The position numbers and the translations under genes are program-made. 64,000 nt of DNA from contig OZ024752.1 of NCBI GenBank assembly GCA_964016885.1, forward strand, positions 43,400,001 to 43,464,000. Reading direction: 5' to 3'. The DNA comes from Eledone cirrhosa (taxonomy: Eukaryota). Below, piece after piece: positions 1-54,039 of the stretch (position 1 is the stretch's first letter; each line of letters begins with the position of its first letter). Below the pieces are notes generated by a model that did not search any database, was not told where the DNA came from, and saw only the letters and a list, made by a program, of their open reading frames with translations.

Positions 1-127
1 TTTACAAAGTGCTGTGATCAAAGTAGCTTTTAAGCAATTTCCTAACTAACAAACAACATCAACAAAATATATACAAATATCTTTGAATGTCAAGTCCACC
101 AAGAGAAAATAGTCATAATGTACTTAC

Positions 128-182
128 AGATACAATGCTAGGGACTCGCATCAATGAGTTTTAGTAGAAAATGACTGACTGA
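128..182 (-). other. Candidate exon C (55 nt) (every unit)
   Basis: Acceptor CTCTGTCCCTCAACAG, followed by further tandem CAGs, and donor TCT|GTAAGTA. Confidence 0.5.
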
Positions 183-441
183 CTGTTGAGGGACAGAGGT
201 GTGTTTTCAAATATTTATCAATTCACAACAAAGCCTCACAAAGCTACATCATAATGCAAACTCACAACACCCTTCTTATGCAACCTCACCAAGCAACCCC
301 ACAACACAACCTCACGTTCACAATTCACAACACTCAACAAGGCATTCGTTATCTAGGGTTTACAGTAAACATAGCGAGGTAAAACACACCCAGTACACTC
401 TGTAAAGTGGTCATTAGGTTAAGATTAAACTGAAATCATAC

Positions 442-519
442 CTCCATTGTCGTTGGCGTATATTTTCTCTAAAACTTAATTTCATTGCTTTCATTTCTAT
501 TCTTTTTCTTCTATTCCAT
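442..519 (-). other. Candidate exon B (78 nt, purine-rich) (every unit)
   Basis: Acceptor TTTTTTTCATATTTAG and donor GAG|GTATGA. One frame is open (WNRRKRIEMKAMKLSFRENIRQRQW). Confidence 0.55.
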
Positions 520-568
520 CTAAATATGAAAAAAATTATACAGGTCATTTCGTCTTATCAAGAGGTCC

Positions 569-602
<34 letters not shown>

Positions 603-613
603 CGAGATAATAC

Positions 614-688
614 CTTAAAATAATGGTAAAAAAAGTGTTTAATTACGAAAATCCTTTGAAATAACTTCCTCGCTCTTACTGGTCATAC
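614..688 (-). other. Candidate exon A (75 nt) of a spliced minus-strand cassette (every unit)
   Basis: Acceptor TGTTTTGTGTTTTGCAG and donor AAG|GTATTA. Stops occur in all three frames. Confidence 0.5.
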
Positions 689-723
689 CTGCAAAACACA
701 AAACACTAGGGTTACAGTGAAAA

Positions 724-756
724 GTGCAGTGCAGTGCAGTGCAGTGCAGTGCAGTG
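724..756. repeat. (GTGCA)n pentanucleotide microsatellite, copy number variable between units
   Basis: Read directly from the sequence; longer in units 5-8, shortest in unit 11. Confidence 0.95.
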
Positions 757-861
757 TAATTTAGTATGGTGCAGTTTAGTGGCACAGTACACTGTAAAAC
801 ATTTAGCCAATCTCTCAGACATTTACAAATCTTTCAAGATATATATATATATATATATATA

Positions 862-1350
862 TGGGAGAGAGAGAAATTACCCTCAGTAGATCAGACAGAG
901 GGACCAGCTATTGAGATTAACGAATATAGGGTCCAAGAGGCGATTAAGGAAATGAAAAATGGTGAGGCTGCTGGACCATCGGAGATAGTTGCTGAGATGC
1001 TGAAGGCCTCAGGGGACGTAGGCACTAAACTGGTTGCACACATCATCAATCAGGCTATATATGGCAGTGTCATACCCAAAGACTAGTGCAAAAGTAAAGG
1101 GGACGCTCTTGAGAGGAGAAATTATAGGGATATAAAACTGATGGATCAGGTTATGAAAGTGGCAGAAAGGATATTAGCACAACTAATTAGAGAAAGGGTC
1201 AAACTAGATGAGATGCAGTTTGGTTTTGTGCCTGGGAATAGTACAACAGATGCCCTCTTCTTGATGAGACAATTACAAGAGAGGTTCTTAGAGAAAAATA
1301 AGCCACTATACTTAGCCTTTGTTGACCTAGAGAAGGCCTTTGATAGGGGT
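862..1350 (+). mobile_element. RTE-clade LINE remnant, RT N-terminal part (present in every unit)
   Basis: Translates WEREKLPSVDQTEGPAI...AIKEMKNGEAAGPSEIVAEMLK...KGDALERRNYRGIKLMDQVMKV...QFGFVPGNSTTDA...LYLAFVDLEKAFDR. These are non-LTR RT motifs. There is a stop at 1084 with a deletion, and the match ends before YADD. Confidence 0.93.
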
Positions 1351-1527
1351 ACCCCGATCTGTCATCTTATTATTTAACCTATAAATGGGGCCCTAACAGG
1401 TACTACTACACCAGGCCAGAGCAGATCTGGGAGTTATGACAACTAAGGGGGTAACTCCACGTTCCCCACAGTTCCTCCTGAACTTGAGCCTTGCCACTGG
1501 ATGTAGTTTAATGTCATACCCAGGACA
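1351..1527 (+). mobile_element. SINE-like interspersed repeat fragment interrupting the RT (every unit)
   Basis: Non-RT sequence ccctaacaggtactac...gacctgggagt...gtttaatgtcatacccaggaca runs into (TA)n. A short related motif occurs at ~41620. Confidence 0.55.
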
Positions 1528-1599
1528 AATATATACATACATATATATATACATACACACATATATATATATATATATACATATATACAAATATATATA

Positions 1600-2069
1600 T
1601 GCGTACGAAAGTGTGGTTACATGATGCCTATGCGAGATGTGCGACCCTGCATGGTAGTGAGACATGGACAGCAACTGCAGAGGGTATGCGATGGCTGGAG
1701 AGAAATGAAGCAAGCACGCTCCGTTGGATGTGCAATGTCAATGTGCGGGAACGACCAAGCATAAACGAGTTGAGAGAGAAACTGTGTTTAAGAGGGATAA
1801 GTTGTGGTGTGCAAGAGGGGACTGAGATGGTATGGACATGTGATGCGCATGGAGGTTGAGCGCTGGGTAAAGAAGGGAGACGCAGTAGAGGAAGACCACG
1901 AAAAACATGGGTGGAGGTGGTGAGAGCCGACTTCAGATCGCTGAAACTCACCAAGGAGATGACGAAGGACCGTGACAAGTGAAGAGATGCTTTGCTCAAG
2001 AGGACCTGTCCCACCCTTTCAAGCAGGGAAAAGCGGACGTAAAATGATGAACAGACGATGATAATGATG
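1600..2069 (+). mobile_element. RTE-clade LINE C-terminus and 3' tail (every unit)
   Basis: LHGSETW...LERNEASTLRWMC...ELREKL...RGRPRKTWVEVVRADF, followed by a short 3' UTR ending in a (GAT)n-like tail typical of RTE elements. Confidence 0.88.
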
Positions 2070-2142
2070 CTCTCTATATATCTATCTCTCTATCAATCTA
2101 TCCAGATATCTGTGCATCAGTCTATCTATTTACCTATAAACA

Positions 2143-2393
2143 CCCTCCTCACTCCGTCTCAGGATCACCGAGACATCACCAACAACCAACCCACGCTGTG
2201 GGAAACAGTCCTCCCCGGGGCACACCCTGGTACTTCACACCATCTGTCTGTCTCGCTGCCTAACTACCGAGAAATCCGGCTTCTGTGCTTGCCTAATTTG
2301 TAGGTTATTAGGCAGTTGGCAGGTTTGCGGAAGTTGGTTTTGCAAATGGTTAAAACACTTGCATCACAAAATTCAAATAGCATCACTCCTTGT
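2143..2393 (-). mobile_element. Inverted RTE APE-endonuclease fragment (every unit)
   Basis: The reverse complement reads LFEFCDASVLTICKTNFRKPANCLITYKLGKH...RQRDRQMV...CPGEDCFPQRGLVVGDV. It is ~80% identical by hand alignment to 2664-2857. Confidence 0.9.
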
Positions 2394-2399
2394 TTTATC

Positions 2400-2518
2400 T
2401 TTCTCGTCTTTACCTAGGCCTGCATAAGTTAGTGTTACGGTTAGTGTTACTGTTAGCGTTACGGCTAGTTTTAGGGTTAATTGAGAGCAAGAAACTGCTG
2501 CTAGGTAAAGACAAGAAA
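2400..2518. mobile_element. Small inverted-repeat (MITE-like) element with degenerate TTAGGG-like hexamers (every unit)
   Basis: tttctcgtctttacctag (2400-2417) pairs with ctaggtaaagacaagaaa (2501-2518) at 17/18 positions. The interior reads TTAGTG TTACGG TTAGTG TTACTG TTAGCG TTACGG CTAGTT TTAGGG. Confidence 0.6.
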
Positions 2519-2559
2519 TTCTGCATTTACAAGCAATTTTTACAAACAGCCACAATGAC

Positions 2560-3345
2560 AGGACGGAGACATCGTTATGCTAGCAGGGGATTTCAATGGT
2601 CATGTTGGACAGCTCTACGATGGTTACACTGAGGTACATGTTGGGCACACTTACGGCTTAAGAAATGAAGCAGTGAAACTTCTTGAATTTTGCGATGCAA
2701 TTGCACTAACCATCTACAACACTAACTTACACAAATCTGCCAACCACCTAATAACCTACAAATCAGGCAAGCACATAAGCCAGATTGACTTCTTGCTAGT
2801 TAGGCAGCGGGACAGGCAGATGGTGTCAAATACAAAGGCATACCCCGGGGAAGAATGTACCCCAAGCAAGAGACTGAATGAGACATACAGGAAGGTGTGG
2901 AAAAAAGAAAGGTCTGGAAGCTAAAAGAGCTCTCACTAAAATACAAATTTAGGAAAGCCCTTCAATATGTGTATGATGAAAAAGAAGACGATTTAGAGTC
3001 GTACAACATAGATGATAACTGGAATTTCTTATGCGATACCTTACTGCAGGTTACTGATGAAACTTGTGGCTGGATCAGAGTTCCAACCAGACAGAGAGTG
3101 ACATGGTGGTGGGACAGCACGGTAGATCGGGCCATTGGAGACTAAAGACTAGCATGGAATGCTTGCAAAATTAGTGCGAGTAGAGAAGAATATACAGCCG
3201 CTAAGAGAGAAGCTAGACGTCAGGTGTACTTAGCATGCAAGGAGGCTGCTCGACGACGTGCGCTGTTCCGTACTGCAAGGCAGTGTGTCAGTGCAAATCG
3301 GGATTAAGTCTGTCCGCAATGATGCCGCTGTACTTTGTGTCACGA
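2560..3345 (+). mobile_element. RTE-clade LINE remnant, APE endonuclease and linker (every unit)
   Basis: MLAGDFNGHVG...LLEFC...ITYKSG...SQIDFLLVR, then RKVWKLK...TWWWDSTVDRAI...EYTAAKREARRQVYLA...VRNDAAVLCV. Frameshifts and stops are present. Confidence 0.93.
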
Positions 3346-3387
3346 ATGAGTGTTGATGAGTAGAAAAGAGGACAAAACTCTATTCCG

Positions 3388-3600
3388 TCAGGGAAATGGC
3401 CATGTTCGATATGCAGAAACGGAACTGGCATAAATTATATAAAACGTACGCAAAAGATCGAGTGCGATAGCAGGCACGTAGTGGGATAGCAGGCAAACTA
3501 ACAGCATATTTTGATTATAATAAAACAAATAATAATAGTAATAATAATAATAATCGTCATTGTTCTTTTCTTCTGTGCCTTTCTTTGCCTTCTCTGTCAT
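3388..3600 (-). other. Candidate exon D (3' end undefined; 3388 is the stop of its open frame)
   Basis: Strong acceptor TTCTTTTTTCTTTTTATTTTTGTTATTCAG|ATGACAGAG, 175 nt downstream of the exon C donor at 3775. Confidence 0.5.
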
Positions 3601-6600
3601 CTGAATAACAAAAATAAAAAGAAAAAAGAATCTTAAACATATGTTGCCTTTACAAAGTGCTGTGATCAAAGTAGCTTTTAAGCAATTTCCTAACTAACAA
3701 ACAACATCAACAAAATATATACAAATATCTTTGAATGTCAAGTCCACCAAGAGAAAATAGTCATAATGTACTTACAGATACAATGCTAGGGACTCGCATC
3801 AATGAGTTTTAGTAGAAAATGACTGACTGACTGTTGAGGGACAGAGGTGTGTTTTCAAATATTTATCAATTCACAACAAAGCCTCACAAAGCTACATCAT
3901 AATGCAAACTCACAACACCCTTCTTATGCAACCTCACCAAGCAACCCCACAACCCCACAACACAACCTCACGTTCACAATTCACAACACTCAACAAGGCA
4001 TTCGTTATCTAGGGTTTACAGTAAACATAGCGAGGTAAAACACACCCAGTACACTCTGTAAAGTGGTCATTAGGTTAAGATTAAACTGAAATCATACCTC
4101 CATTGTCGTTGGCGTATATTTTCTCTAAAACTTAATTTCATTGCTTTCATTTCTATTCTTTTTCTTCTATTCCATCTAAATATGAAAAAAATTATACAGG
4201 TCATTTCGTCTTATCAAGAGGTCCATTTAAAAAAAAAAAAAAAACCCGAGATAATACCTTAAAATAATGGTAAAAAAAGTGTTTAATTACGAAAATCCTT
4301 TGAAATAACTTCCTCGCTCTTACTGGTCATACCTGCAAAACACAAAACACTAGGGTTACAGTGAAAAGTGCAGTGCAGTGCAGTGCAGTGCAGTGCAGTG
4401 TAATTTAGTATGGTGCAGTTTAGTGGCACAGTACACTGTAAAACATTTAGCCAATCTCTCAGACATTTACAAATCTTTCAAGATATATATATATATATAT
4501 ATATATGGGAGAGAGAGAAATTACCCTCAGTAGATCAGACAGAGGGACCAGCTATTGAGATTAACGAATATAGGGTCCAAGAGGCGATTAAGGAAATGAA
4601 AAATGGTGAGGCTGCTGGACCATCGGAGATAGTTGCTGAGATGCTGAAGGCCTCAGGGGACGTAGGCACTAAACTGGTTGCACACATCATCAATCAGGCT
4701 ATATATGGCAGTGTCATACCCAAAGACTAGTGCAAAAGTAAAGGGGACGCTCTTGAGAGGAGAAATTATAGGGATATAAAACTGATGGATCAGGTTATGA
4801 AAGTGGCAGAAAGGATATTAGCACAACTAATTAGAGAAAGGGTCAAACTAGATGAGATGCAGTTTGGTTTTGTGCCTGGGAATAGTACAACAGATGCCCT
4901 CTTCTTGATGAGACAATTACAAGAGAGGTTCTTAGAGAAAAATAAGCCACTATACTTAGCCTTTGTTGACCTAGAGAAGGCCTTTGATAGGGGTACCCCG
5001 ATCTGTCATCTTATTATTTAACCTATAAATGGGGCCCTAACAGGTACTACTACACCAGGCCAGAGCAGATCTGGGAGTTATGACAACTAAGGGGGTAACT
5101 CCACGTTCCCCACAGTTCCTCCTGAACTTGAGCCTTGCCACTGGATGTAGTTTAATGTCATACCCAGGACAAATATATACATACATATATATATACATAC
5201 ACACATATATATATATATATATACATATATACAAATATATATATGCGTACGAAAGTGTGGTTACATGATGCCTATGCGAGATGTGCGACCCTGCATGGTA
5301 GTGAGACATGGACAGCAACTGCAGAGGGTATGCGATGGCTGGAGAGAAATGAAGCAAGCACGCTCCGTTGGATGTGCAATGTCAATGTGCGGGAACGACC
5401 AAGCATAAACGAGTTGAGAGAGAAACTGTGTTTAAGAGGGATAAGTTGTGGTGTGCAAGAGGGGACTGAGATGGTATGGACATGTGATGCGCATGGAGGT
5501 TGAGCGCTGGGTAAAGAAGGGAGACGCAGTAGAGGAAGACCACGAAAAACATGGGTGGAGGTGGTGAGAGCCGACTTCAGATCGCTGAAACTCACCAAGG
5601 AGATGACGAAGGACCGTGACAAGTGAAGAGATGCTTTGCTCAAGAGGACCTGTCCCACCCTTTCAAGCAGGGAAAAGCGGACGTAAAATGATGAACAGAC
5701 GATGATAATGATGCTCTCTATATATCTATCTCTCTATCAATCTATCCAGATATCTGTGCATCAGTCTATCTATTTACCTATAAACACCCTCCTCACTCCG
5801 TCTCAGGATCACCGAGACATCACCAACAACCAACCCACGCTGTGGGAAACAGTCCTCCCCGGGGCACACCCTGGTACTTCACACCATCTGTCTGTCTCGC
5901 TGCCTAACTACCGAGAAATCCGGCTTCTGTGCTTGCCTAATTTGTAGGTTATTAGGCAGTTGGCAGGTTTGCGGAAGTTGGTTTTGCAAATGGTTAAAAC
6001 ACTTGCATCACAAAATTCAAATAGCATCACTCCTTGTTTTATCTTTCTCGTCTTTACCTAGGCCTGCATAAGTTAGTGTTACGGTTAGTGTTACTGTTAG
6101 CGTTACGGCTAGTTTTAGGGTTAATTGAGAGCAAGAAACTGCTGCTAGGTAAAGACAAGAAATTCTGCATTTACAAGCAATTTTTACAAACAGCCACAAT
6201 GACAGGACGGAGACATCGTTATGCTAGCAGGGGATTTCAATGGTCATGTTGGACAGCTCTACGATGGTTACACTGAGGTACATGTTGGGCACACTTACGG
6301 CTTAAGAAATGAAGCAGTGAAACTTCTTGAATTTTGCGATGCAATTGCACTAACCATCTACAACACTAACTTACACAAATCTGCCAACCACCTAATAACC
6401 TACAAATCAGGCAAGCACATAAGCCAGATTGACTTCTTGCTAGTTAGGCAGCGGGACAGGCAGATGGTGTCAAATACAAAGGCATACCCCGGGGAAGAAT
6501 GTACCCCAAGCAAGAGACTGAATGAGACATACAGGAAGGTGTGGAAAAAAGAAAGGTCTGGAAGCTAAAAGAGCTCTCACTAAAATACAAATTTAGGAAA

Positions 6601-9600
6601 GCCCTTCAATATGTGTATGATGAAAAAGAAGACGATTTAGAGTCGTACAACATAGATGATAACTGGAATTTCTTATGCGATACCTTACTGCAGGTTACTG
6701 ATGAAACTTGTGGCTGGATCAGAGTTCCAACCAGACAGAGAGTGACATGGTGGTGGGACAGCACGGTAGATCGGGCCATTGGAGACTAAAGACTAGCATG
6801 GAATGCTTGCAAAATTAGTGCGAGTAGAGAAGAATATACAGCCGCTAAGAGAGAAGCTAGACGTCAGGTGTACTTAGCATGCAAGGAGGCTGCTCGACGA
6901 CGTGCGCTGTTCCGTACTGCAAGGCAGTGTGTCAGTGCAAATCGGGATTAAGTCTGTCCGCAATGATGCCGCTGTACTTTGTGTCACGAATGAGTGTTGA
7001 TGAGTAGAAAAGAGGACAAAACTCTATTCCGTCAGGGAAATGGCCATGTTCGATATGCAGAAACGGAACTGGCATAAATTATATAAAACGTACGCAAAAG
7101 ATCGAGTGCGATAGCAGGCACGTAGTGGGATAGCAGGCAAACTAACAGCATATTTTGATTATAATAAAACAAATAATAATAGTAATAATAATAATAATCG
7201 TCATTGTTCTTTTCTTCTGTGCCTTTCTTTGCCTTCTCTGTCATCTGAATAACAAAAATAAAAAGAAAAAAGAATCTTAAACATATGTTGCCTTTACAAA
7301 GTGCTGTGATCAAAGTAGCTTTTAAGCAATTTCCTAACTAACAAACAACATCAACAAAATATATACAAATATCTTTGAATGTCAAGTCCACCAAGAGAAA
7401 ATAGTCATAATGTACTTACAGATACAATGCTAGGGACTCGCATCAATGAGTTTTAGTAGAAAATGACTGACTGACTGTTGAGGGACAGAGGTGTGTTTTC
7501 AAATATTTATCAATTCACAACAAAGCCTCACAAAGCTACATCATAATGCAAACTCACAACACCCTTCTTATGCAACCTCACCAAGCAACCCCACAACACA
7601 ACCTCACGTTCACAATTCACAACACTCAACAAGGCATTCGTTATCTAGGGTTTACAGTAAACATAGCGAGGTAAAACACACCCAGTACACTCTGTAAAGT
7701 GGTCATTAGGTTAAGATTAAACTGAAATCATACCTCCATTGTCGTTGGCGTATATTTTCTCTAAAACTTAATTTCATTGCTTTCATTTCTATTCTTTTTC
7801 TTCTATTCCATCTAAATATGAAAAAAATTATACAGGTCATTTCGTCTTATCAAGAGGTCCATTTAAAAAAAAAAAAAAAACCCGAGATAATACCTTAAAA
7901 TAATGGTAAAAAAAGTGTTTAATTACGAAAATCCTTTGAAATAACTTCCTCGCTCTTACTGGTCATACCTGCAAAACACAAAACACTAGGGTTACAGTGA
8001 AAAGTGCAGTGCAGTGCAGTGCAGTGCAGTGCAGTGTAATTTAGTATGGTGCAGTTTAGTGGCACAGTACACTGTAAAACATTTAGCCAATCTCTCAGAC
8101 ATTTACAAATCTTTCAAGATATATATATATATATATATATATGGGAGAGAGAGAAATTACCCTCAGTAGATCAGACAGAGGGACCAGCTATTGAGATTAA
8201 CGAATATAGGGTCCAAGAGGCGATTAAGGAAATGAAAAATGGTGAGGCTGCTGGACCATCGGAGATAGTTGCTGAGATGCTGAAGGCCTCAGGGGACGTA
8301 GGCACTAAACTGGTTGCACACATCATCAATCAGGCTATATATGGCAGTGTCATACCCAAAGACTAGTGCAAAAGTAAAGGGGACGCTCTTGAGAGGAGAA
8401 ATTATAGGGATATAAAACTGATGGATCAGGTTATGAAAGTGGCAGAAAGGATATTAGCACAACTAATTAGAGAAAGGGTCAAACTAGATGAGATGCAGTT
8501 TGGTTTTGTGCCTGGGAATAGTACAACAGATGCCCTCTTCTTGATGAGACAATTACAAGAGAGGTTCTTAGAGAAAAATAAGCCACTATACTTAGCCTTT
8601 GTTGACCTAGAGAAGGCCTTTGATAGGGGTACCCCGATCTGTCATCTTATTATTTAACCTATAAATGGGGCCCTAACAGGTACTACTACACCAGGCCAGA
8701 GCAGATCTGGGAGTTATGACAACTAAGGGGGTAACTCCACGTTCCCCACAGTTCCTCCTGAACTTGAGCCTTGCCACTGGATGTAGTTTAATGTCATACC
8801 CAGGACAAATATATACATACATATATATATACATACACACATATATATATATATATATACATATATACAAATATATATATGCGTACGAAAGTGTGGTTAC
8901 ATGATGCCTATGCGAGATGTGCGACCCTGCATGGTAGTGAGACATGGACAGCAACTGCAGAGGGTATGCGATGGCTGGAGAGAAATGAAGCAAGCACGCT
9001 CCGTTGGATGTGCAATGTCAATGTGCGGGAACGACCAAGCATAAACGAGTTGAGAGAGAAACTGTGTTTAAGAGGGATAAGTTGTGGTGTGCAAGAGGGG
9101 ACTGAGATGGTATGGACATGTGATGCGCATGGAGGTTGAGCGCTGGGTAAAGAAGGGAGACGCAGTAGAGGAAGACCACGAAAAACATGGGTGGAGGTGG
9201 TGAGAGCCGACTTCAGATCGCTGAAACTCACCAAGGAGATGACGAAGGACCGTGACAAGTGAAGAGATGCTTTGCTCAAGAGGACCTGTCCCACCCTTTC
9301 AAGCAGGGAAAAGCGGACGTAAAATGATGAACAGACGATGATAATGATGCTCTCTATATATCTATCTCTCTATCAATCTATCCAGATATCTGTGCATCAG
9401 TCTATCTATTTACCTATAAACACCCTCCTCACTCCGTCTCAGGATCACCGAGACATCACCAACAACCAACCCACGCTGTGGGAAACAGTCCTCCCCGGGG
9501 CACACCCTGGTACTTCACACCATCTGTCTGTCTCGCTGCCTAACTACCGAGAAATCCGGCTTCTGTGCTTGCCTAATTTGTAGGTTATTAGGCAGTTGGC

Positions 9601-12600
9601 AGGTTTGCGGAAGTTGGTTTTGCAAATGGTTAAAACACTTGCATCACAAAATTCAAATAGCATCACTCCTTGTTTTATCTTTCTCGTCTTTACCTAGGCC
9701 TGCATAAGTTAGTGTTACGGTTAGTGTTACTGTTAGCGTTACGGCTAGTTTTAGGGTTAATTGAGAGCAAGAAACTGCTGCTAGGTAAAGACAAGAAATT
9801 CTGCATTTACAAGCAATTTTTACAAACAGCCACAATGACAGGACGGAGACATCGTTATGCTAGCAGGGGATTTCAATGGTCATGTTGGACAGCTCTACGA
9901 TGGTTACACTGAGGTACATGTTGGGCACACTTACGGCTTAAGAAATGAAGCAGTGAAACTTCTTGAATTTTGCGATGCAATTGCACTAACCATCTACAAC
10001 ACTAACTTACACAAATCTGCCAACCACCTAATAACCTACAAATCAGGCAAGCACATAAGCCAGATTGACTTCTTGCTAGTTAGGCAGCGGGACAGGCAGA
10101 TGGTGTCAAATACAAAGGCATACCCCGGGGAAGAATGTACCCCAAGCAAGAGACTGAATGAGACATACAGGAAGGTGTGGAAAAAAGAAAGGTCTGGAAG
10201 CTAAAAGAGCTCTCACTAAAATACAAATTTAGGAAAGCCCTTCAATATGTGTATGATGAAAAAGAAGACGATTTAGAGTCGTACAACATAGATGATAACT
10301 GGAATTTCTTATGCGATACCTTACTGCAGGTTACTGATGAAACTTGTGGCTGGATCAGAGTTCCAACCAGACAGAGAGTGACATGGTGGTGGGACAGCAC
10401 GGTAGATCGGGCCATTGGAGACTAAAGACTAGCATGGAATGCTTGCAAAATTAGTGCGAGTAGAGAAGAATATACAGCCGCTAAGAGAGAAGCTAGACGT
10501 CAGGTGTACTTAGCATGCAAGGAGGCTGCTCGACGACGTGCGCTGTTCCGTACTGCAAGGCAGTGTGTCAGTGCAAATCGGGATTAAGTCTGTCCGCAAT
10601 GATGCCGCTGTACTTTGTGTCACGAATGAGTGTTGATGAGTAGAAAAGAGGACAAAACTCTATTCCGTCAGGGAAATGGCCATGTTCGATATGCAGAAAC
10701 GGAACTGGCATAAATTATATAAAACGTACGCAAAAGATCGAGTGCGATAGCAGGCACGTAGTGGGATAGCAGGCAAACTAACAGCATATTTTGATTATAA
10801 TAAAACAAATAATAATAGTAATAATAATAATAATCGTCATTGTTCTTTTCTTCTGTGCCTTTCTTTGCCTTCTCTGTCATCTGAATAACAAAAATAAAAA
10901 GAAAAAAGAATCTTAAACATATGTTGCCTTTACAAAGTGCTGTGATCAAAGTAGCTTTTAAGCAATTTCCTAACTAACAAACAACATCAACAAAATATAT
11001 ACAAATATCTTTGAATGTCAAGTCCACCAAGAGAAAATAGTCATAATGTACTTACAGATACAATGCTAGGGACTCGCATCAATGAGTTTTAGTAGAAAAT
11101 GACTGACTGACTGTTGAGGGACAGAGGTGTGTTTTCAAATATTTATCAATTCACAACAAAGCCTCACAAAGCTACATCATAATGCAAACTCACAACACCC
11201 TTCTTATGCAACCTCACCAAGCAACCCCACAACACAACCTCACGTTCACAATTCACAACACTCAACAAGGCATTCGTTATCTAGGGTTTACAGTAAACAT
11301 AGCGAGGTAAAACACACCCAGTACACTCTGTAAAGTGGTCATTAGGTTAAGATTAAACTGAAATCATACCTCCATTGTCGTTGGCGTATATTTTCTCTAA
11401 AACTTAATTTCATTGCTTTCATTTCTATTCTTTTTCTTCTATTCCATCTAAATATGAAAAAAATTATACAGGTCATTTCGTCTTATCAAGAGGTCCATTT
11501 AAAAAAAAAAAAAAAACCCGAGATAATACCTTAAAATAATGGTAAAAAAAGTGTTTAATTACGAAAATCCTTTGAAATAACTTCCTCGCTCTTACTGGTC
11601 ATACCTGCAAAACACAAAACACTAGGGTTACAGTGAAAAGTGCAGTGCAGTGCAGTGCAGTGCAGTGCAGTGTAATTTAGTATGGTGCAGTTTAGTGGCA
11701 CAGTACACTGTAAAACATTTAGCCAATCTCTCAGACATTTACAAATCTTTCAAGATATATATATATATATATATATATGGGAGAGAGAGAAATTACCCTC
11801 AGTAGATCAGACAGAGGGACCAGCTATTGAGATTAACGAATATAGGGTCCAAGAGGCGATTAAGGAAATGAAAAATGGTGAGGCTGCTGGACCATCGGAG
11901 ATAGTTGCTGAGATGCTGAAGGCCTCAGGGGACGTAGGCACTAAACTGGTTGCACACATCATCAATCAGGCTATATATGGCAGTGTCATACCCAAAGACT
12001 AGTGCAAAAGTAAAGGGGACGCTCTTGAGAGGAGAAATTATAGGGATATAAAACTGATGGATCAGGTTATGAAAGTGGCAGAAAGGATATTAGCACAACT
12101 AATTAGAGAAAGGGTCAAACTAGATGAGATGCAGTTTGGTTTTGTGCCTGGGAATAGTACAACAGATGCCCTCTTCTTGATGAGACAATTACAAGAGAGG
12201 TTCTTAGAGAAAAATAAGCCACTATACTTAGCCTTTGTTGACCTAGAGAAGGCCTTTGATAGGGGTACCCCGATCTGTCATCTTATTATTTAACCTATAA
12301 ATGGGGCCCTAACAGGTACTACTACACCAGGCCAGAGCAGATCTGGGAGTTATGACAACTAAGGGGGTAACTCCACGTTCCCCACAGTTCCTCCTGAACT
12401 TGAGCCTTGCCACTGGATGTAGTTTAATGTCATACCCAGGACAAATATATACATACATATATATATACATACACACATATATATATATATATATACATAT
12501 ATACAAATATATATATGCGTACGAAAGTGTGGTTACATGATGCCTATGCGAGATGTGCGACCCTGCATGGTAGTGAGACATGGACAGCAACTGCAGAGGG

Positions 12601-15140
12601 TATGCGATGGCTGGAGAGAAATGAAGCAAGCACGCTCCGTTGGATGTGCAATGTCAATGTGCGGGAACGACCAAGCATAAACGAGTTGAGAGAGAAACTG
12701 TGTTTAAGAGGGATAAGTTGTGGTGTGCAAGAGGGGACTGAGATGGTATGGACATGTGATGCGCATGGAGGTTGAGCGCTGGGTAAAGAAGGGAGACGCA
12801 GTAGAGGAAGACCACGAAAAACATGGGTGGAGGTGGTGAGAGCCGACTTCAGATCGCTGAAACTCACCAAGGAGATGACGAAGGACCGTGACAAGTGAAG
12901 AGATGCTTTGCTCAAGAGGACCTGTCCCACCCTTTCAAGCAGGGAAAAGCGGACGTAAAATGATGAACAGACGATGATAATGATGCTCTCTATATATCTA
13001 TCTCTCTATCAATCTATCCAGATATCTGTGCATCAGTCTATCTATTTACCTATAAACACCCTCCTCACTCCGTCTCAGGATCACCGAGACATCACCAACA
13101 ACCAACCCACGCTGTGGGAAACAGTCCTCCCCGGGGCACACCCTGGTACTTCACACCATCTGTCTGTCTCGCTGCCTAACTACCGAGAAATCCGGCTTCT
13201 GTGCTTGCCTAATTTGTAGGTTATTAGGCAGTTGGCAGGTTTGCGGAAGTTGGTTTTGCAAATGGTTAAAACACTTGCATCACAAAATTCAAATAGCATC
13301 ACTCCTTGTTTTATCTTTCTCGTCTTTACCTAGGCCTGCATAAGTTAGTGTTACGGTTAGTGTTACTGTTAGCGTTACGGCTAGTTTTAGGGTTAATTGA
13401 GAGCAAGAAACTGCTGCTAGGTAAAGACAAGAAATTCTGCATTTACAAGCAATTTTTACAAACAGCCACAATGACAGGACGGAGACATCGTTATGCTAGC
13501 AGGGGATTTCAATGGTCATGTTGGACAGCTCTACGATGGTTACACTGAGGTACATGTTGGGCACACTTACGGCTTAAGAAATGAAGCAGTGAAACTTCTT
13601 GAATTTTGCGATGCAATTGCACTAACCATCTACAACACTAACTTACACAAATCTGCCAACCACCTAATAACCTACAAATCAGGCAAGCACATAAGCCAGA
13701 TTGACTTCTTGCTAGTTAGGCAGCGGGACAGGCAGATGGTGTCAAATACAAAGGCATACCCCGGGGAAGAATGTACCCCAAGCAAGAGACTGAATGAGAC
13801 ATACAGGAAGGTGTGGAAAAAAGAAAGGTCTGGAAGCTAAAAGAGCTCTCACTAAAATACAAATTTAGGAAAGCCCTTCAATATGTGTATGATGAAAAAG
13901 AAGACGATTTAGAGTCGTACAACATAGATGATAACTGGAATTTCTTATGCGATACCTTACTGCAGGTTACTGATGAAACTTGTGGCTGGATCAGAGTTCC
14001 AACCAGACAGAGAGTGACATGGTGGTGGGACAGCACGGTAGATCGGGCCATTGGAGACTAAAGACTAGCATGGAATGCTTGCAAAATTAGTGCGAGTAGA
14101 GAAGAATATACAGCCGCTAAGAGAGAAGCTAGACGTCAGGTGTACTTAGCATGCAAGGAGGCTGCTCGACGACGTGCGCTGTTCCGTACTGCAAGGCAGT
14201 GTGTCAGTGCAAATCGGGATTAAGTCTGTCCGCAATGATGCCGCTGTACTTTGTGTCACGAATGAGTGTTGATGAGTAGAAAAGAGGACAAAACTCTATT
14301 CCGTCAGGGAAATGGCCATGTTCGATATGCAGAAACGGAACTGGCATAAATTATATAAAACGTACGCAAAAGATCGAGTGCGATAGCAGGCACGTAGTGG
14401 GATAGCAGGCAAACTAACAGCATATTTTGATTATAATAAAACAAATAATAATAGTAATAATAATAATAATCGTCATTGTTCTTTTCTTCTGTGCCTTTCT
14501 TTGCCTTCTCTGTCATCTGAATAACAAAAATAAAAAGAAAAAAGAATCTTAAACATATGTTGCCTTTACAAAGTGCTGTGATCAAAGTAGCTTTTAAGCA
14601 ATTTCCTAACTAACAAACAACATCAACAAAATATATACAAATATCTTTGAATGTCAAGTCCACCAAGAGAAAATAGTCATAATGTACTTACAGATACAAT
14701 GCTAGGGACTCGCATCAATGAGTTTTAGTAGAAAATGACTGACTGACTGTTGAGGGACAGAGGTGTGTTTTCAAATATTTATCAATTCACAACAAAGCCT
14801 CACAAAGCTACATCATAATGCAAACTCACAACACCCTTCTTATGCAACCTCACCAAGCAACCCCACAACCCCACAACACAACCTCACGTTCACAATTCAC
14901 AACACTCAACAAGGCATTCGTTATCTAGGGTTTACAGTAAACATAGCGAGGTAAAACACACCCAGTACACTCTGTAAAGTGGTCATTAGGTTAAGATTAA
15001 ACTGAAATCATACCTCCATTGTCGTTGGCGTATATTTTCTCTAAAACTTAATTTCATTGCTTTCATTTCTATTCTTTTTCTTCTATTCCATCTAAATATG
15101 AAAAAAATTATACAGGTCATTTCGTCTTATCAAGAGGTCC

Positions 15141-15177
<37 letters not shown>

Positions 15178-18100
15178 CGAGATAATACCTTAAAATAATG
15201 GTAAAAAAAGTGTTTAATTACGAAAATCCTTTGAAATAACTTCCTCGCTCTTACTGGTCATACCTGCAAAACACAAAACACTAGCGTTACAGTGAAAAGT
15301 GCAGTGCAGTGCAGTGCAGTGCAGTGCAGTGCAGTGCAGTGTAATTTAGTATGGTGCAGTTTAGTGGCACAGTACACTGTAAAACATTTAGCCAATCTCT
15401 CAGACATTTACAAATCTTTCAAGATATATATATATATATATATATATGGGAGAGAGAGAAATTACCCTCAGTAGATCAGACAGAGGGACCAGCTATTGAG
15501 ATTAACGAATATAGGGTCCAAGAGGCGATTAAGGAAATGAAAAATGGTGAGGCTGCTGGACCATCGGAGATAGTTGCTGAGATGCTGAAGGCCTCAGGGG
15601 ACGTAGGCACTAAACTGGTTGCACACATCATCAATCAGGCTATATATGGCAGTGTCATACCCAAAGACTAGTGCAAAAGTAAAGGGGACGCTCTTGAGAG
15701 GAGAAATTATAGGGATATAAAACTGATGGATCAGGTTATGAAAGTGGCAGAAAGGATATTAGCACAACTAATTAGAGAAAGGGTCAAACTAGATGAGATG
15801 CAGTTTGGTTTTGTGCCTGGGAATAGTACAACAGATGCCCTCTTCTTGATGAGACAATTACAAGAGAGGTTCTTAGAGAAAAATAAGCCACTATACTTAG
15901 CCTTTGTTGACCTAGAGAAGGCCTTTGATAGGGGTACCCCGATCTGTCATCTTATTATTTAACCTATAAATGGGGCCCTAACAGGTACTACTACACCAGG
16001 CCAGAGCAGACCTGGGAGTTATGACAACTAAGGGGGTAACTCCACGTTCCCCACAGTTCCTCCTGAACTTGAGCCTTGCCACTGGATGTAGTTTAATGTC
16101 ATACCCAGGACAAATATATACATACATATATATATACATACACACATATATATATATATATATACATATATACAAATATATATATGCGTACGAAAGTGTG
16201 GTTACATGATGCCTATGCGAGATGTGCGACCCTGCATGGTAGTGAGACATGGACAGCAACTGCAGAGGGTATGCGATGGCTGGAGAGAAATGAAGCAAGC
16301 ACGCTCCGTTGGATGTGCAATGTCAATGTGCGGGAACGACCAAGCATAAACGAGTTGAGAGAGAAACTGTGTTTAAGAGGGATAAGTTGTGGTGTGCAAG
16401 AGGGGACTGAGATGGTATGGACATGTGATGCGCATGGAGGTTGAGCGCTGGGTAAAGAAGGGAGACGCAGTAGAGGAAGACCACGAAAAACATGGGTGGA
16501 GGTGGTGAGAGCCGACTTCAGATCGCTGAAACTCACCAAGGAGATGACGAAGGACCGTGACAAGTGAAGAGATGCTTTGCTCAAGAGGACCTGTCCCACC
16601 CTTTCAAGCAGGGAAAAGCGGACGTAAAATGATGAACAGACGATGATAATGATGCTCTCTATATATCTATCTCTCTATCAATCTATCCAGATATCTGTGC
16701 ATCAGTCTATCTATTTACCTATAAACACCCTCCTCACTCCGTCTCAGGATCACCGAGACATCACCAACAACCAACCCACGCTGTGGGAAACAGTCCTCCC
16801 CGGGGCACACCCTGGTACTTCACACCATCTGTCTGTCTCGCTGCCTAACTACCGAGAAATCCGGCTTCTGTGCTTGCCTAATTTGTAGGTTATTAGGCAG
16901 TTGGCAGGTTTGCGGAAGTTGGTTTTGCAAATGGTTAAAACACTTGCATCACAAAATTCAAATAGCATCACTCCTTGTTTTATCTTTCTCGTCTTTACCT
17001 AGGCCTGCATAAGTTAGTGTTACGGTTAGTGTTACTGTTAGCGTTACGGCTAGTTTTAGGGTTAATTGAGAGCAAGAAACTGCTGCTAGGTAAAGACAAG
17101 AAATTCTGCATTTACAAGCAATTTTTACAAACAGCCACAATGACAGGACGGAGACATCGTTATGCTAGCAGGGGATTTCAATGGTCATGTTGGACAGCTC
17201 TACGATGGTTACACTGAGGTACATGTTGGGCACACTTACGGCTTAAGAAATGAAGCAGTGAAACTTCTTGAATTTTGCGATGCAATTGCACTAACCATCT
17301 ACAACACTAACTTACACAAATCTGCCAACCACCTAATAACCTACAAATCAGGCAAGCACATAAGCCAGATTGACTTCTTGCTAGTTAGGCAGCGGGACAG
17401 GCAGATGGTGTCAAATACAAAGGCATACCCCGGGGAAGAATGTACCCCAAGCAAGAGACTGAATGAGACATACAGGAAGGTGTGGAAAAAAGAAAGGTCT
17501 GGAAGCTAAAAGAGCTCTCACTAAAATACAAATTTAGGAAAGCCCTTCAATATGTGTATGATGAAAAAGAAGACGATTTAGAGTCGTACAACATAGATGA
17601 TAACTGGAATTTCTTATGCGATACCTTACTGCAGGTTACTGATGAAACTTGTGGCTGGATCAGAGTTCCAACCAGACAGAGAGTGACATGGTGGTGGGAC
17701 AGCACGGTAGATCGGGCCATTGGAGACTAAAGACTAGCATGGAATGCTTGCAAAATTAGTGCGAGTAGAGAAGAATATACAGCCGCTAAGAGAGAAGCTA
17801 GACGTCAGGTGTACTTAGCATGCAAGGAGGCTGCTCGACGACGTGCGCTGTTCCGTACTGCAAGGCAGTGTGTCAGTGAAAATCGGGATTAAGTCTGTCC
17901 GCAATGATGCCGCTGTACTTTGTGTCACGAATGAGTGTTGATGAGTAGAAAAGAGGACAAAACTCTATTCCGTCAGGGAAATGGCCATGTTCGATATGCA
18001 GAAACGGAACTGGCATAAATTATATAAAACGTACGCAAAAGATCGAGTGCGATAGCAGGCACGTAGTGGGATAGCAGGCAAACTAACAGCATATTTTGAT

Positions 18101-18801
18101 TATAATAAAACAAATAATAATAGTAATAATAATAATAATCGTCATTGTTCTTTTCTTCTGTGCCTTTCTTTGCCTTCTCTGTCATCTGAATAACAAAAAT
18201 AAAAAGAAAAAAGAATCTTAAACATATGTTGCCTTTACAAAGTGCTGTGATCAAAGTAGCTTTTAAGCAATTTCCTAACTAACAAACAACATCAACAAAA
18301 TATATACAAATATCTTTGAATGTCAAGTCCACCAAGAGAAAATAGTCATAATGTACTTACAGATACAATGCTAGGGACTCGCATCAATGAGTTTTAGTAG
18401 AAAATGACTGACTGACTGTTGAGGGACAGAGGTGTGTTTTCAAATATTTATCAATTCACAACAAAGCCTCACAAAGCTACATCATAATGCAAACTCACAA
18501 CACCCTTCTTATGCAACCTCACCAAGCAACCCCACAACACAACCTCACGTTCACAATTCACAACACTCAACAAGGCATTCATTATCTAGGGTTTACAGTA
18601 AACATAGCGAGGTAAAACACACCCAGTACACTCTGTAAAGTGGTCATTAGGTTAAGATTAAACTGAAATCATACCTCCATTGTCGTTGGCGTATATTTTC
18701 TCTAAAACTTAATTTCATTGCTTTCATTTCTATTCTTTTTCTTCTATTCCATCTAAATATGAAAAAAATTATACAGGTCATTTCGTCTTATCAAGAGGTC
18801 C

Positions 18802-18839
<38 letters not shown>

Positions 18840-21800
18840 GAGATAATACCTTAAAATAATGGTAAAAAAAGTGTTTAATTACGAAAATCCTTTGAAATAA
18901 CTTCCTCGCTCTTACTGGTCATACCTGCAAAACACAAAACACTAGCGTTACAGTGAAAAGTGCAGTGCAGTGCAGTGCAGTGCAGTGCAGTGCAGTGTAA
19001 TTTAGTATGGTGCAGTTTAGTGGCACAGTACACTGTAAAACATTTAGCCAATCTCTCAGACATTTACAAATCTTTCAAGATATATATATATATATATATA
19101 TATGGGAGAGAGAGAAATTACCCTCAGTAGATCAGACAGAGGGACCAGCTATTGAGATTAACGAATATAGGGTCCAAGAGGCGATTAAGGAAATGAAAAA
19201 TGGTGAGGCTGCTGGACCATCGGAGATAGTTGCTGAGATGCTGAAGGCCTCAGGGGACGTAGGCACTAAACTGGTTGCACACATCATCAATCAGGCTATA
19301 TATGGCAGTGTCATACCCAAAGACTAGTGCAAAAGTAAAGGGGACGCTCTTGAGAGGAGAAATTATAGGGATATAAAACTGATGGATCAGGTTATGAAAG
19401 TGGCAGAAAGGATATTAGCACAACTAATTAGAGAAAGGGTCAAACTAGATGAGATGCAGTTTGGTTTTGTGCCTGGGAATAGTACAACAGATGCCCTCTT
19501 CTTGATGAGACAATTACAAGAGAGGTTCTTAGAGAAAAATAAGCCACTATACTTAGCCTTTGTTGACCTAGAGAAGGCCTTTGATAGGGGTACCCCGATC
19601 TGTCATCTTATTATTTAACCTATAAATGGGGCCCTAACAGGTACTACTACACCAGGCCAGAGCAGACCTGGGAGTTATGACAACTAAGGGGGTAACTCCA
19701 CGTTCCCCACAGTTCCTCCTGAACTTGAGCCTTGCCACTGGATGTAGTTTAATGTCATACCCAGGACAAATATATACATACATATATATATACATACACA
19801 CATATATATATATATATACATATATACAAATATATATATGCGTACGAAAGTGTGGTTACATGATGCCTATGCGAGATGTGCGACCCTGCATGGTAGTGAG
19901 ACATGGACAGCAACTGCAGAGGGTATGCGATGGCTGGAGAGAAATGAAGCAAGCACGCTCCGTTGGATGTGCAATGTCAATGTGCGGGAACGACCAAGCA
20001 TAAACGAGTTGAGAGAGAAACTGTGTTTAAGAGGGATAAGTTGTGGTGTGCAAGAGGGGACTGAGATGGTATGGACATGTGATGCGCATGGAGGTTGAGC
20101 GCTGGGTAAAGGGAGACGCAGTAGAGGAAGACCACGAAAAACATGGGTGGAGGTGGTGAGAGCCGACTTCAGATCGCTGAAACTCACCAAGGAGATGACG
20201 AAGGACCGTGACAAGTGAAGAGATGCTTTGCTCAAGAGGACCTGTCCCACCCTTTCAAGCAGGGAAAAGCGGACGTAAAATGATGAACAGACGATGATAA
20301 TGATGCTCTCTATATATCTATCTCTCTATCAATCTATCCAGATATCTGTGCATCAGTTTATCTATTTACCTATAAACACCCTCCTCACTCCGTCTCAGGA
20401 TCACCGAGACATCACCAACAACCAACCCACGCTGTGGGAAACAGTCCTCCCCGGGGCACACCCTGGTACTTCACACCATCTGTCTGTCTCGCTGCCTAAC
20501 TACCGAGAAATCCGGCTTCTGTGCTTGCCTAATTTGTAGGTTATTAGGCAGTTGGCAGGTTTGCGGAAGTTGGTTTTGCAAATGGTTAAAACACTTGCAT
20601 CACAAAATTCAAATAGCATCACTCCTTGTTTTATCTTTCTCGTCTTTACCTAGGCCTGCATAAGTTAGTGTTACGGTTAGTGTTACTGTTAGCGTTACGG
20701 CTAGTTTTAGGGTTAATTGAGAGCAAGAAACTGCTGCTAGGTAAAGACAAGAAATTCTGCATTTACAAGCAATTTTTACAAACAGCCACAATGACAGGAC
20801 GGAGACATCGTTATGCTAGCAGGGGATTTCAATGGTCATGTTGGACAGCTCTACGATGGTTACACTGAGGTACATGTTGGGCACACTTACGGCTTAAGAA
20901 ATGAAGCAGTGAAACTTCTTGAATTTTGCGATGCAATTGCACTAACCATCTACAACACTAACTTACACAAATCTGCCAACCACCTAATAACCTACAAATC
21001 AGGCAAGCACATAAGCCAGATTGACTTCTTGCTAGTTAGGCAGCGGGACAGGCAGATGGTGTCAAATACAAAGGCATACCCCGGGGAAGAATGTACCCCA
21101 AGCAAGAGACTGAATGAGACATACAGGAAGGTGTGGAAAAAAGAAAGGTCTGGAAGCTAAAAGAGCTCTCACTAAAATACAAATTTAGGAAAGCCCTTCA
21201 ATATGTGTATGATGAAAAAGAAGACGATTTAGAGTCGTACAACATAGATGATAACTGGAATTTCTTATGCGATACCTTACTGCAGGTTACTGATGAAACT
21301 TGTGGCTGGATCAGAGTTCCAACCAGACAGAGAGTGACATGGTGGTGGGACAGCACGGTAGATCGGGCCATTGGAGACTAAAGACTAGCATGGAATGCTT
21401 GCAAAATTAGTGCGAGTAGAGAAGAATATACAGCCGCTAAGAGAGAAGCTAGACGTCAGGTGTACTTAGCATGCAAGGAGGCTGCTCGACGACGTGCGCT
21501 GTTCCGTACTGCAAGGCAGTGTGTCAGTGAAAATCGGGATTAAGTCTGTCCGCAATGATGCCGCTGTACTTTGTGTCACGAATGAGTGTTGATGAGTAGA
21601 AAAGAGGACAAAACTCTATTCCGTCAGGGAAATGGCCATGTTCGATATGCAGAAACGGAACTGGCATAAATTATATAAAACGTACGCAAAAGATCGAGTG
21701 CGATAGCAGGCACGTAGTGGGATAGCAGGCAAACTAACAGCATATTTTGATTATAATAAAACAAATAATAATAGTAATAATAATAATAATCGTCATTGTT

Positions 21801-29750: not shown

Positions 29751-29788
<38 letters not shown>

Positions 29789-38700: not shown

Positions 38701-39784
38701 CCATCTGTCTGTCTCGCTGCCTAACTACCGAGAAATCCGGCTTCTGTGCTTGCCTAATTTGTAGGTTATTAGGCAGTTGGCAGGTTTGCGGAAGTTGGTT
38801 TTGCAAATGGTTAAAACACTTGCATCACAAAATTCAAATAGCATCACTCCTTGTTTTATCTTTCTCGTCTTTACCTAGGCCTGCATAAGTTAGTGTTACG
38901 GTTAGTGTTACTGTTAGCGTTACGGCTAGTTTTAGGGTTAATTGAGAACAAGAAACTGCTGCTAGGTAAAGACAAGAAATTCTGCATTTACAAGCAATTT
39001 TTACAAACAGCCACAATGACAGGACGGAGACATCGTTATGCTAGCAGGGGATTTCAATGGTCATGTTGGACAGCTCTACGATGGTTACACTGAGGTACAT
39101 GTTGGGCACACTTACGGCTTAAGAAATGAAGCAGTGAAACTTCTTGAATTTTGCGATGCAATTGCACTAACCATCTACAACACTAACTTACACAAATCTG
39201 CCAACCACCTAATAACCTACAAATCAGGCAAGCACATAAGCCAGATTGACTTCTTGCTAGTTAGGCAGCGGGACAGGCAGATGGTGTCAAATACAAAGGC
39301 ATACCCCGGGGAAGAATGTACCCCAAGCAAGAGACTGAATGAGACATACAGGAAGGTGTGGAAAAAAGAAAGGTCTGGAAGCTAAAAGAGCTCTCACTAA
39401 AATACAAATTTAGGAAAGCCCTTCAATATGTGTATGATGAAAAAGAAGACGATTTAGAGTCGTACAACATAGATGATAACTGGAATTTCTTATGCGATAC
39501 CTTACTGCAGGTTACTGATGAAACTTGTGGCTGGATCAGAGTTCCAACCAGACAGAGAGTGACATGGTGGTGGGACAGCACGGTAGATCGGGCCATTGGA
39601 GACTAAAGACTAGCATGGAATGCTTGCAAAATTAGTGCGAGTAGAGAAGAATATACAGCCGCTAAGAGAGAAGCTAGACGTCAGGTGTACTTAGCACGCA
39701 AGGAGGCTGCTCGACGACGTGCGCTGTTCCGTACTGCGAGGCAGTGTGTCAGTGCAAATCGGGATTAAGTCTGTCCGCAATGAT

Positions 39785-40247: not shown

Positions 40248-40284
<37 letters not shown>

Positions 40285-40980: not shown

Positions 40981-40984
40981 TATC

Positions 40985-53865: not shown

Positions 53866-54039
53866 AAAGTGTCGTCTTCCTGTCTTCCTTCGGTTGCAAC
53901 GTTTTTTGAAATATTTACTTCTGCGTTCACAGATTGACTTTTTTAGTTTCAGAAGATCCCGTTAAGGGTAAAAGCAGCAATTCTTTGCTTAAACTTTAAT
54001 CTGTTATTTTAATAAATATTTGCTCTACGGTTCTTATAT

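What the first reader, a model, noticed from the sequence alone, without database searches (positions are those of the whole stretch)
3346..4505. Four-exon minus-strand cassette in every unit, not visible in the ORF track
Seen: within ~750 bp there are four polypyrimidine-AG acceptors and three GT donors, all on the minus strand and in alternating order. In unit-1 coordinates the exons are A 688-614, B 519-442 and C 182-128; D starts at 3600 and follows the unit-2 copies of A-C. Introns are short (~80-260 nt). The variable poly(A) run, the 5-bp duplication and the 1-bp deletion all fall in predicted introns. A+B+C has no long frame. Inference: this is a tandemly amplified spliced lncRNA, micropeptide gene or captured gene fragment, antisense to the surrounding LINE.
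Basis: partly seen in the sequence, partly recalled or inferred. Interest (0 to 1): 0.72.

Follow-up and report, generated by a model that had tools for sequence, protein, structure and literature searches.

The report
Spliced gene relic in subtelomeric repeat
A broken piece of an old multi-copy, gene-like sequence sits inside a 3.6-kb tandem repeat that lies near telomere sequence at many places in this animal genome; sister copies are spliced in one sequencing run that is likely RNA, and the product is likely a non-coding by-product rather than a working gene.

Summary
The seven splice-like sites lie where described, in all 11 units, but only four are seen in use. C is not an exon: its donor is GT in 0 of 12 older homologues. 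The RNA carries an allele that this array lacks, so expression from this locus is not shown. The unit is LINE debris plus exons of an older dispersed, intron-bearing family whose D/E/K-rich frame is broken. The array belongs to a subtelomeric block: 17 of 20 loci checked lie about 30-55 kb from a (TTAGGG)n tract, with the cassette pointing at it. There is no sign of selection: exon A is deleted in 8 of 61 copies and exons diverge like introns. Best reading: a subtelomeric macrosatellite yielding spliced, telomere-ward, non-coding read-through RNA.

The parts
1..39784 (.). Tandem array of ~3.64-kb units (11 cassette copies; the array starts 2,017 bp left of the window at C12:43,397,984)
   Evidence: self-BLAST 99.1-99.6%; unit lengths 3636-3669; start
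3310..6953 (.). One repeat unit (reference unit 2)
4258..4332 (-). Exon A (75 nt): donor used; acceptor read through in X1, so it is the 3' end of a longer exon there
   Evidence: joint 2268>2343 CT..AC, X1 depth 131.6, X3 0 (mapped); X1 contigs run on upstream of 4332
4313..4332 (-). 20-nt A' segment: has a GTAAGT donor in the C28 megasatellite copies, which splice it to B; that donor is broken in this window (GAG|GAAGTT)
4176..4257 (-). Intron A-B (82 nt here, with the variable poly(A) run; 74 nt in the C3 copy)
4098..4175 (-). Exon B (78 nt), both sites used; decayed phase-1 D/E/K-rich exon; the window's allele at 4155 occurs only on C9 and C12
3601..4097 (-). Intron B-D (497 nt), removed whole in X1; contains a very high-copy dispersed repeat at about 4009-4086
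   Evidence: joint 3600>4098 CT..AC, X1 depth 262.5, X2 0; the same joint in X1, not X3
3776..3830 (-). 'Exon C': intronic pseudo-exon, not seen spliced
   Evidence: unbranched 485-nt X1 contig 3573-4065; donor GT in 0 of 12 older homologues
3346..3600 (-). Exon D (acceptor used; 3' end unknown): relic terminal exon with (ATT)n, running into a very high-copy repeat (about 3346-3460); holds a 70-aa off-frame ORF (3600-3388)
4367..4505 (.). (AGTGC)n and (AT)n microsatellites upstream of exon A
4506..5009 (+). LINE reverse-transcriptase fragment (one stop)
   Evidence: PF00078 E 7.4e-9 on 4731-5009; translation
5282..5710 (+). LINE 3' end fragment (high-copy; label from recalled motif resemblance, no Pfam hit)
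5843..6035 (-). Inverted second endonuclease-like LINE fragment (79% to 6312-6508)
6203..6900 (+). LINE endonuclease and linker fragment
   Evidence: PF14529 E 0.0099, below curated cut-off; translation
39848..40982 (.). Post-array relic: RT fragment plus a 94% copy of unit positions 4300-5199 holding the first 33 nt of exon A; likely one recombination partner that built the unit
   Evidence: same relic beside sister arrays

Best explanation
The finding is a broken three-exon relic (A, B, D) of an older multi-copy, gene-like sequence, carried inside a 3.6-kb macrosatellite of a subtelomeric duplication block; sister copies are spliced A>B and B>D in one run that is likely RNA, and the product is likely a non-coding by-product of read-through transcription towards the telomere. 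Shown: the sites; the two joints; their absence from two DNA-like runs and, for B-D, from the assembly; the older family; the broken frames; the telomere-adjacent placement; loss of exon A in some arrays. Inferred: that X1 is RNA; that one family copy landed beside decayed LINE pieces; that ectopic recombination between shared fragments made the 3.3-3.7-kb unit; that unequal exchange gave 3-14 units per array and exchange between chromosome ends spread the block; that the spliceosome simply reuses inherited sites; that the RNA has no selected function. The promoter and the 3' end are unknown.
For: Joints with exact GT..AG ends in X1 only: B>D depth 262.5 and A>B 131.6. X2 and X3 show neither, although X3 does show a family-level DNA joint (2425>2484, depth 4121) as a positive control. 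No joined B-D form in the assembly (0 matches). Older relatives at 66-88% share acceptor, exon start and donor, and B and D are homologous modules; at least 158 D-like matches among 150 scored of 3,120 candidates. Only 1 of 23 older B-type exons is frame-symmetric and stop-free (counted); the ancestral frame of A+B+D has 6 stops before the poly-Leu stretch. Exons are no better kept than introns against the C2a copy: A 4/75, B 8/78, introns 8/74, 10/267, 10/170. Exon A is deleted in 8 of 61 copies scored. 237 exact copies of the B-acceptor 21-mer. Telomere tract found beyond 17 of 20 loci, 7 of 9 of them predicted before fetching.
Against: All junction evidence is one run of one study, whose kind is not on record. 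Each joint rests on one contig with 28-30 letters on the short side, below the tool's 31-letter bridging rule, at 85% likeness. X1 is a different sample from the DNA-like controls. Contigs give no strand, so the minus-strand direction is read from the GT..AG ends. All X1 contigs over 4155 carry the allele that this array lacks (window allele in 17 copies only), though contigs drop minor variants. Absence of sequence constraint does not exclude a function of transcription itself or of copy number. No intact parent gene was found (a weak search), so the coding ancestry rests on reading frames alone. In one search, 81 joints were not displayed, so rare use of C is not excluded.
Confidence: 0.62

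Rival explanations
1. A functional subtelomeric lncRNA system: the arrays supply a spliced, telomere-directed RNA, in proportion to copy number, that helps set chromatin at chromosome ends, as D4Z4-derived RNAs or TERRA do in humans.
For: Arrays at 17 of 20 loci face a telomere tract on the strand that would read UUAGGG; splicing is readily seen; the cassette was amplified twice, in the 3.6-kb arrays and in a 44-copy megasatellite on C28, and both types are spliced. Human D4Z4/DBE-T RNAs are chromatin-bound and depend on array size (10.1101/2024.03.18.585486, passages).
Against: The shared orientation is one inherited block, not 17 events. The tract is 30-55 kb away. Exon A is deleted in whole arrays, and exons are unconstrained. 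No promoter, strand or tissue data.
Confidence: 0.15
2. The cassette is an internal piece of a large intron-bearing mobile element (Helitron-like or other non-autonomous DNA element), and the splicing belongs to that element's transcript.
For: Older copies are dispersed over C1-C8, C11 and C21, keep their introns, and are 88-98% alike in blocks on different chromosomes; two copies end at the same point in (TA)n.
Against: No shared transposase, helicase or RT frame among the 7 loci examined; homology is patchy and runs past the 30-40 kb fetched; no TIR or TSD was defined. This fits composite segmental duplications equally well. No transposon library was available.
Confidence: 0.13
3. The B>D RNA makes a 70-72-aa micropeptide with a basic N-terminus, a poly-Tyr run and a hydrophobic tail.
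For: A 68-72-aa ORF from the first ATG of D is intact in 59 of 75 D copies scored; B>D adds an in-frame upstream Met.
Against: The ORF is off the ancestral frame, runs into a high-copy repeat, and is truncated in the C1, C2, C14 and all 12 C18/C28 copies; no Pfam hit. The intact copies are 97-99% identical, so their agreement carries little weight.
Confidence: 0.05
4. The joints are not splicing: X1 is low-coverage DNA of another individual carrying deleted or retroposed variants, or the joints are repeat artefacts.
For: Kind of X1 is not on record; sides are 28-30 letters; different sample from the controls.
Against: Three different joints fall exactly on splice sites (two GT..AG in the reference, the third GT..AG in the C28 copy whose diagnostic bases it carries); none in X2 or X3, and no joined B-D form in the assembly.
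Confidence: 0.05

Closest known systems
Human D4Z4 macrosatellite at 4q35 with DBE-T and D4Z4-derived RNAs (10.1101/2024.03.18.585486, passages read; the 3.3-kb unit and its DUX4 content are recalled)
   Same: Kilobase-sized, near-identical tandem units in a subtelomere, variable in number, giving RNA.
   Different: No sequence relation and no homeobox or other intact conserved ORF; found beside at least 17 telomere tracts rather than two ends; the unit is LINE debris plus intron-bearing exons; no function shown.
Human subtelomeric segmental duplications carrying WASH copies (PMC2151093, passages read)
   Same: A block copied between many chromosome ends, holding truncated or frameshifted multi-exon gene copies, some giving spliced transcripts.
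   Different: WASH has intact, conserved, functional copies and ends within 5 kb of the telomere; here no intact parent is known, the piece is itself tandemly amplified, and it lies 30-55 kb in.
TERRA (recalled; only search listings seen)
   Same: Transcription from the subtelomere towards the chromosome end, on the strand that would read UUAGGG.
   Different: Nothing shows that this RNA reaches the telomere repeats; the distance is tens of kb.
Transcribed unprocessed (duplicated) pseudogene fragments (established knowledge)
   Same: Introns kept, frames broken, inherited splice sites still used, no constraint.
   Different: Embedded in and multiplied by a macrosatellite; parent unidentified.

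Membership tests
Subtelomeric macrosatellite (kind) | Head-to-tail kilobase units, highly homogeneous | tested here: met
   11 units of 3636-3669 bp, 99%+ identical
Subtelomeric macrosatellite (kind) | Lies in a duplication block just inside telomere repeats | tested here: met
   C12 tract at 43,355,358-43,359,700, 38 kb from the array; block 96-99% shared with the C9 end; 17 of 20 loci
Subtelomeric macrosatellite (kind) | Copy number varies | tested here: met
   3-14 units per array among loci in the first 100 of 237 places listed; variation between individuals not testable
D4Z4 family (membership) | Unit encodes a DUX-type double homeobox ORF | tested here: not met
   Only RT and endonuclease fragments among the 5 window frames scanned; six-frame reads of four unit segments show LINE debris
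WASH-type subtelomeric gene family | At least one intact, conserved protein-coding copy | tested here: inconclusive
   None found: 1 of 23 B-type exons intact; no protein hit among 7,458 candidates (weak for a low-complexity query)
TERRA | Runs towards the telomere on the UUAGGG strand | tested here: met
   Geometry only: splice-site strand versus tract orientation
TERRA | Transcript contains telomeric repeats | not testable with these tools
   Only short contigs available; tract 38 kb away
Spliced lncRNA gene | Canonical junctions in RNA | tested here: met
   A>B and B>D in X1 only; one run, kind inferred
Spliced lncRNA gene | Defined promoter and 3' end | not testable with these tools
   Contigs show no starts or ends; acceptor A read through
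Spliced lncRNA gene | Exons or splice sites under constraint | tested here: not met
   A donor GT in 2 of 6 older homologues, GC in 3
Processed pseudogene or retrocopy | Introns absent in DNA | tested here: not met
   Introns present in the copies examined; no joined B-D form
Known transposon family (whole insert) | Match to a curated consensus | not testable with these tools
   No Dfam or Repbase library
Known transposon family (whole insert) | Defined termini, TIRs/TSDs or a shared transposition gene | tested here: inconclusive
   Ends not reached and no shared ORF in 7 loci
Known structured RNA family | Rfam match at gathering score | tested here: not met
   10 sub-threshold hits in the unit, none in 3346-4505

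The most novel reading that the evidence does not exclude
An invertebrate counterpart of D4Z4/TERRA biology: a captured spliced cassette, amplified at most chromosome ends and in a 1.7-Mb megasatellite, makes a telomere-directed lncRNA whose dose follows array length and controls subtelomeric chromatin or telomere upkeep.
Probability: 0.15. Interest if true: 0.7.

Novelty: new member of a known kind. Interest (0 to 1): 0.4.

Why it matters
It shows that a real spliced transcript can hide in what looks like LINE debris in a satellite, and it defines a shared subtelomeric block for this genome. The block is a practical marker. Nine internal copies end in a telomere tract at a 200-N scaffold gap, so they may be true chromosome ends joined inside scaffolds, which affects chromosome counts and fusion claims. 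If the RNA proved functional, it would give a non-vertebrate model of array-length-dependent telomere-proximal regulation. As it stands, it is most likely a neutral passenger.

Tried and rejected
No RNA holder listed. X5 and X6 (other organism labels) hold only short repeat matches and depth 2-4 near-identical scraps: not used as evidence of conservation. Four-exon model with C: rejected. Splice strength from sequence alone: modest. Variation avoiding exons: not significant. C28 array as rDNA, histone cluster or coding gene cluster: no rRNA in 80 kb, only two histone 3' stem-loop hits, and no histone-like ORF in the one unit read. Processed copies: none. Parent protein: no hit for the D-type peptide among longer proteins (1 of 3 searches used, 'near' and 'shorter' not tried), no Pfam hit. 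Ends of the older family: not reached. No telomere tract in the DNA examined beyond C8 (first 10 kb), C1 (20 kb, a gap instead) and C2 (20 kb). Joint 833>1058 is a repeat-length variant, not a splice. Contig depths were not used to rank expression. Literature: seven full-text searches listed no paper on this repeat; only listings and abstract starts were seen, apart from passages of two papers; most subscription papers are not searched and no supplements were opened. Earlier-finding look-ups by sequence, relatives and words were blank.

Full report
Setting. The window is C12:43,400,001-43,464,000 of a 3.0-Gb assembly. Positions 1-39,784 are a head-to-tail array of units of 3636-3669 bp, 99% or more identical, starting 2 kb left of the window.

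The observation. All seven sites lie at the stated coordinates in 11 of 11 units. With a generic splice matrix (recalled frequencies), acceptors A and D and donor B are in the top 0.4-1.5% of background sites, acceptor C is at 3%, and donor A, acceptor B and donor C are ordinary (8-14%). The whole chain is matched by 9 of 80 background windows and 18 of 300 shuffles. Among the units, 0 of 19 variable events fall in A, B or C, which is unremarkable (P about 0.33 by hand), and 3 fall in D. Sequence alone is suggestive, not decisive.

Junction evidence. On the window stretch, run X1 (88 M letters of contigs) shows a joint 3600>4098 that skips 497 nt with CT..AC ends, i.e. GT..AG on the minus strand: exon B joined to D, skipping C (depth 262.5). 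X2 (1,394 M letters, DNA-like) lacks it. A poly(A) mask hid the A-B intron, so I laid X1 and X3 on a C3 copy without the run (mapped). That third contig carries the diagnostic bases of copies on C28, where a GTAAGT donor follows A'; the donor is broken in this window. X3 shows none of the three but does show a DNA-level difference of the same family, a positive control. The assembly holds no joined B-D form. No joint touches C among all 8 joints or the 15 displayed of 96, and an unbranched 485-nt contig runs through it. Contigs of both types run unspliced through acceptor A. Caveats: one run, one study, kind not on record (RNA is my inference); one contig per joint with 28-30 letters on the short side, under the tool's 31-letter rule (about what a k=31 junction contig would give, an inference); a sample different from the controls. 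All X1 contigs over 4155 carry C, whereas the window's A occurs in just 17 copies, on C9 and C12. The RNA seen is therefore from sister arrays, and this array is not shown to be expressed.

What the unit is. On the plus strand it holds a reverse-transcriptase fragment (PF00078, E 7e-9), a weak endonuclease fragment and a probable LINE 3' end, with a second endonuclease-like piece inverted. The cassette is antisense to the plus-strand pieces. An RTE-clade label is recalled and untested. Two very high-copy repeats lie inside the finding, at about 3346-3460 and 4009-4086. C1 and C3 carry a longer, unamplified arrangement with all the pieces, and a relic holding the start of exon A flanks the arrays, so the unit likely arose by recombination between shared fragments (inference).

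Where the family lies. The B-acceptor 21-mer has 237 exact matches (first 100 listed), in arrays of 3-14 units. C9, C10 and C13 begin with telomere repeats, and C5, C6 and C13 end with them, 32-55 kb from an array. The window's array is 38 kb from a 4.3-kb (CCCTAA)n tract, within a block 96-99% identical to the C9 end that extends to window 45,224. Predicting a tract beyond nine further loci, I found it at seven. In all, 17 of 20 loci have a tract about 30-55 kb away, always on the side the cassette points to; C8, C1 and C2 had none in the DNA examined. The common orientation reflects one inherited block, not independent events. At 9 of 9 internal tracts whose far end was in view, a 200-N gap adjoins or lies within 1.4 kb, so these may be true ends joined inside scaffolds. 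A second amplification is a 1.7-Mb array on C28 with 44 marker hits, mostly 28-53 kb apart, built of nested satellites and LINE pieces.

Where the exons came from. A more ancestral C2 copy led to dispersed relatives of the older family at 66-88% identity; a module search gave 889 candidates (40 scored), and a D-type peptide gave 158 matches from 150 scored of 3,120 candidates. In these copies B and D begin alike after a homologous intron end and read, in phase 1, as D/E/K-rich repeats, D ending in poly-Leu and a stop; the (ATT)n of the window's D is that poly-Leu stretch. The family is decayed: 1 of 23 B-type exons is symmetric and stop-free. The position of donor C is GT in 0 of 12 older homologues; acceptor A is AG in 23 of 25; donor A is GT in 2, GC in 3 and lost in 1 of 6. 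No parent protein was found (weak). The family's ends were not reached, and seven loci share no mobility gene, so transposon versus duplicon is open.

Selection. Exons differ from the C2 copy as much as introns do. A 3.35-kb variant on C5, C6 and C11 deletes 4233-4553, all of exon A (8 of 61 copies scored). The 68-72-aa ORF in D is intact in 59 of 75 copies but only in the young ones, is off the ancestral frame and has no family hit.

Mechanism and comparison. Most likely (0.62), read-through transcription towards the telomere crosses inherited splice sites and gives a spliced non-coding by-product. Rivals: functional subtelomeric lncRNA (0.15), piece of an intron-bearing mobile element (0.13), micropeptide (0.05), non-splicing artefact (0.05). 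It works like human subtelomeric duplications with broken, transcribed gene copies (WASH, PMC2151093, passages) and resembles D4Z4 in layout (10.1101/2024.03.18.585486, passages). It is not a member of the D4Z4 family and is not shown to be a WASH-type gene family or TERRA. Seven paper searches listed nothing on this repeat. Verdict: real, partly as described, a new member of a known kind; interest 0.40.

Noticed in passing
G000 C12:43,355,158-43,359,700; C7:65,644,305; C11:32,858,908 and 35,217,493; C14:1,286,478; C21:13,867,966; C4:1,884,437; C5:9,721,172; C3:361,552,421: Multi-kb telomere tracts inside scaffolds, each at or within 1.4 kb of a 200-N gap: possible true chromosome ends mis-joined by scaffolding, or interstitial telomeres where contigs break.
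   Followed up: partly
G000 C28:124.7-126.45 Mb (L035-L056); also C178, C1185, C18: 1.7-Mb megasatellite of ~30-45-kb composite units (44 marker hits) with nested palindromic 1.6-kb and ~320-bp repeats, CpG-rich subrepeats, a 957-codon LINE frame and its own spliced version of the cassette. C28 is large yet numbered after the smallest chromosomes, which may mark a sex chromosome (guess).
   Followed up: partly
L047:483-527 and L049:8564-8608: Histone 3' UTR stem-loop matches above Rfam's gathering score with no histone ORF seen upstream.
   Followed up: partly
L052 (C28:124,786,629 onward): Short frame resembling the restriction-like endonuclease end of a non-LTR element, inserted in the (ATT)n of a D copy; resemblance to (TAA)n-targeting R4/Dong elements is recalled, untested.
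   Followed up: no
L164:6600-10000 and relatives (older family): Kilobases of hexamer-periodic sequence downstream of D that read as (T/A/V)-(N/D) repeats: either degenerate telomere-like satellite or a decayed low-complexity protein exon.
   Followed up: partly
L191 (C3:252.90 Mb) and L201 (C1:326.11 Mb): C2H2 zinc-finger-like frames lie 14-16 kb from 2 of 7 older-family loci examined, on the opposite strand; identified by eye, not by Pfam.
   Followed up: no
L150 (C3:370.867-370.872 Mb): The 58-bp intronic repeat around 'exon C' has expanded into a minisatellite of more than 4.5 kb.
   Followed up: no
window 4332: Acceptor A is an AG|GTATGA site, acceptor and strong donor at once (recursive-splicing-like), kept as AG in 23 of 25 older homologues; no use seen.
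   Followed up: partly
window 39763-39804: 19-bp tandem duplication at the exact right end of the array.
   Followed up: no
window 45224: Identity to the C9 chromosome end stops here: the inner edge of the block shared with C9.
   Followed up: partly
window 58812-59769, 62562-63012, 53588-53866, 52148-52549: A 228-bp inverted repeat pair at 97% (MITE-like), a 41-bp minisatellite of 11 copies, and 141-bp and 202-bp duplications.
   Followed up: no
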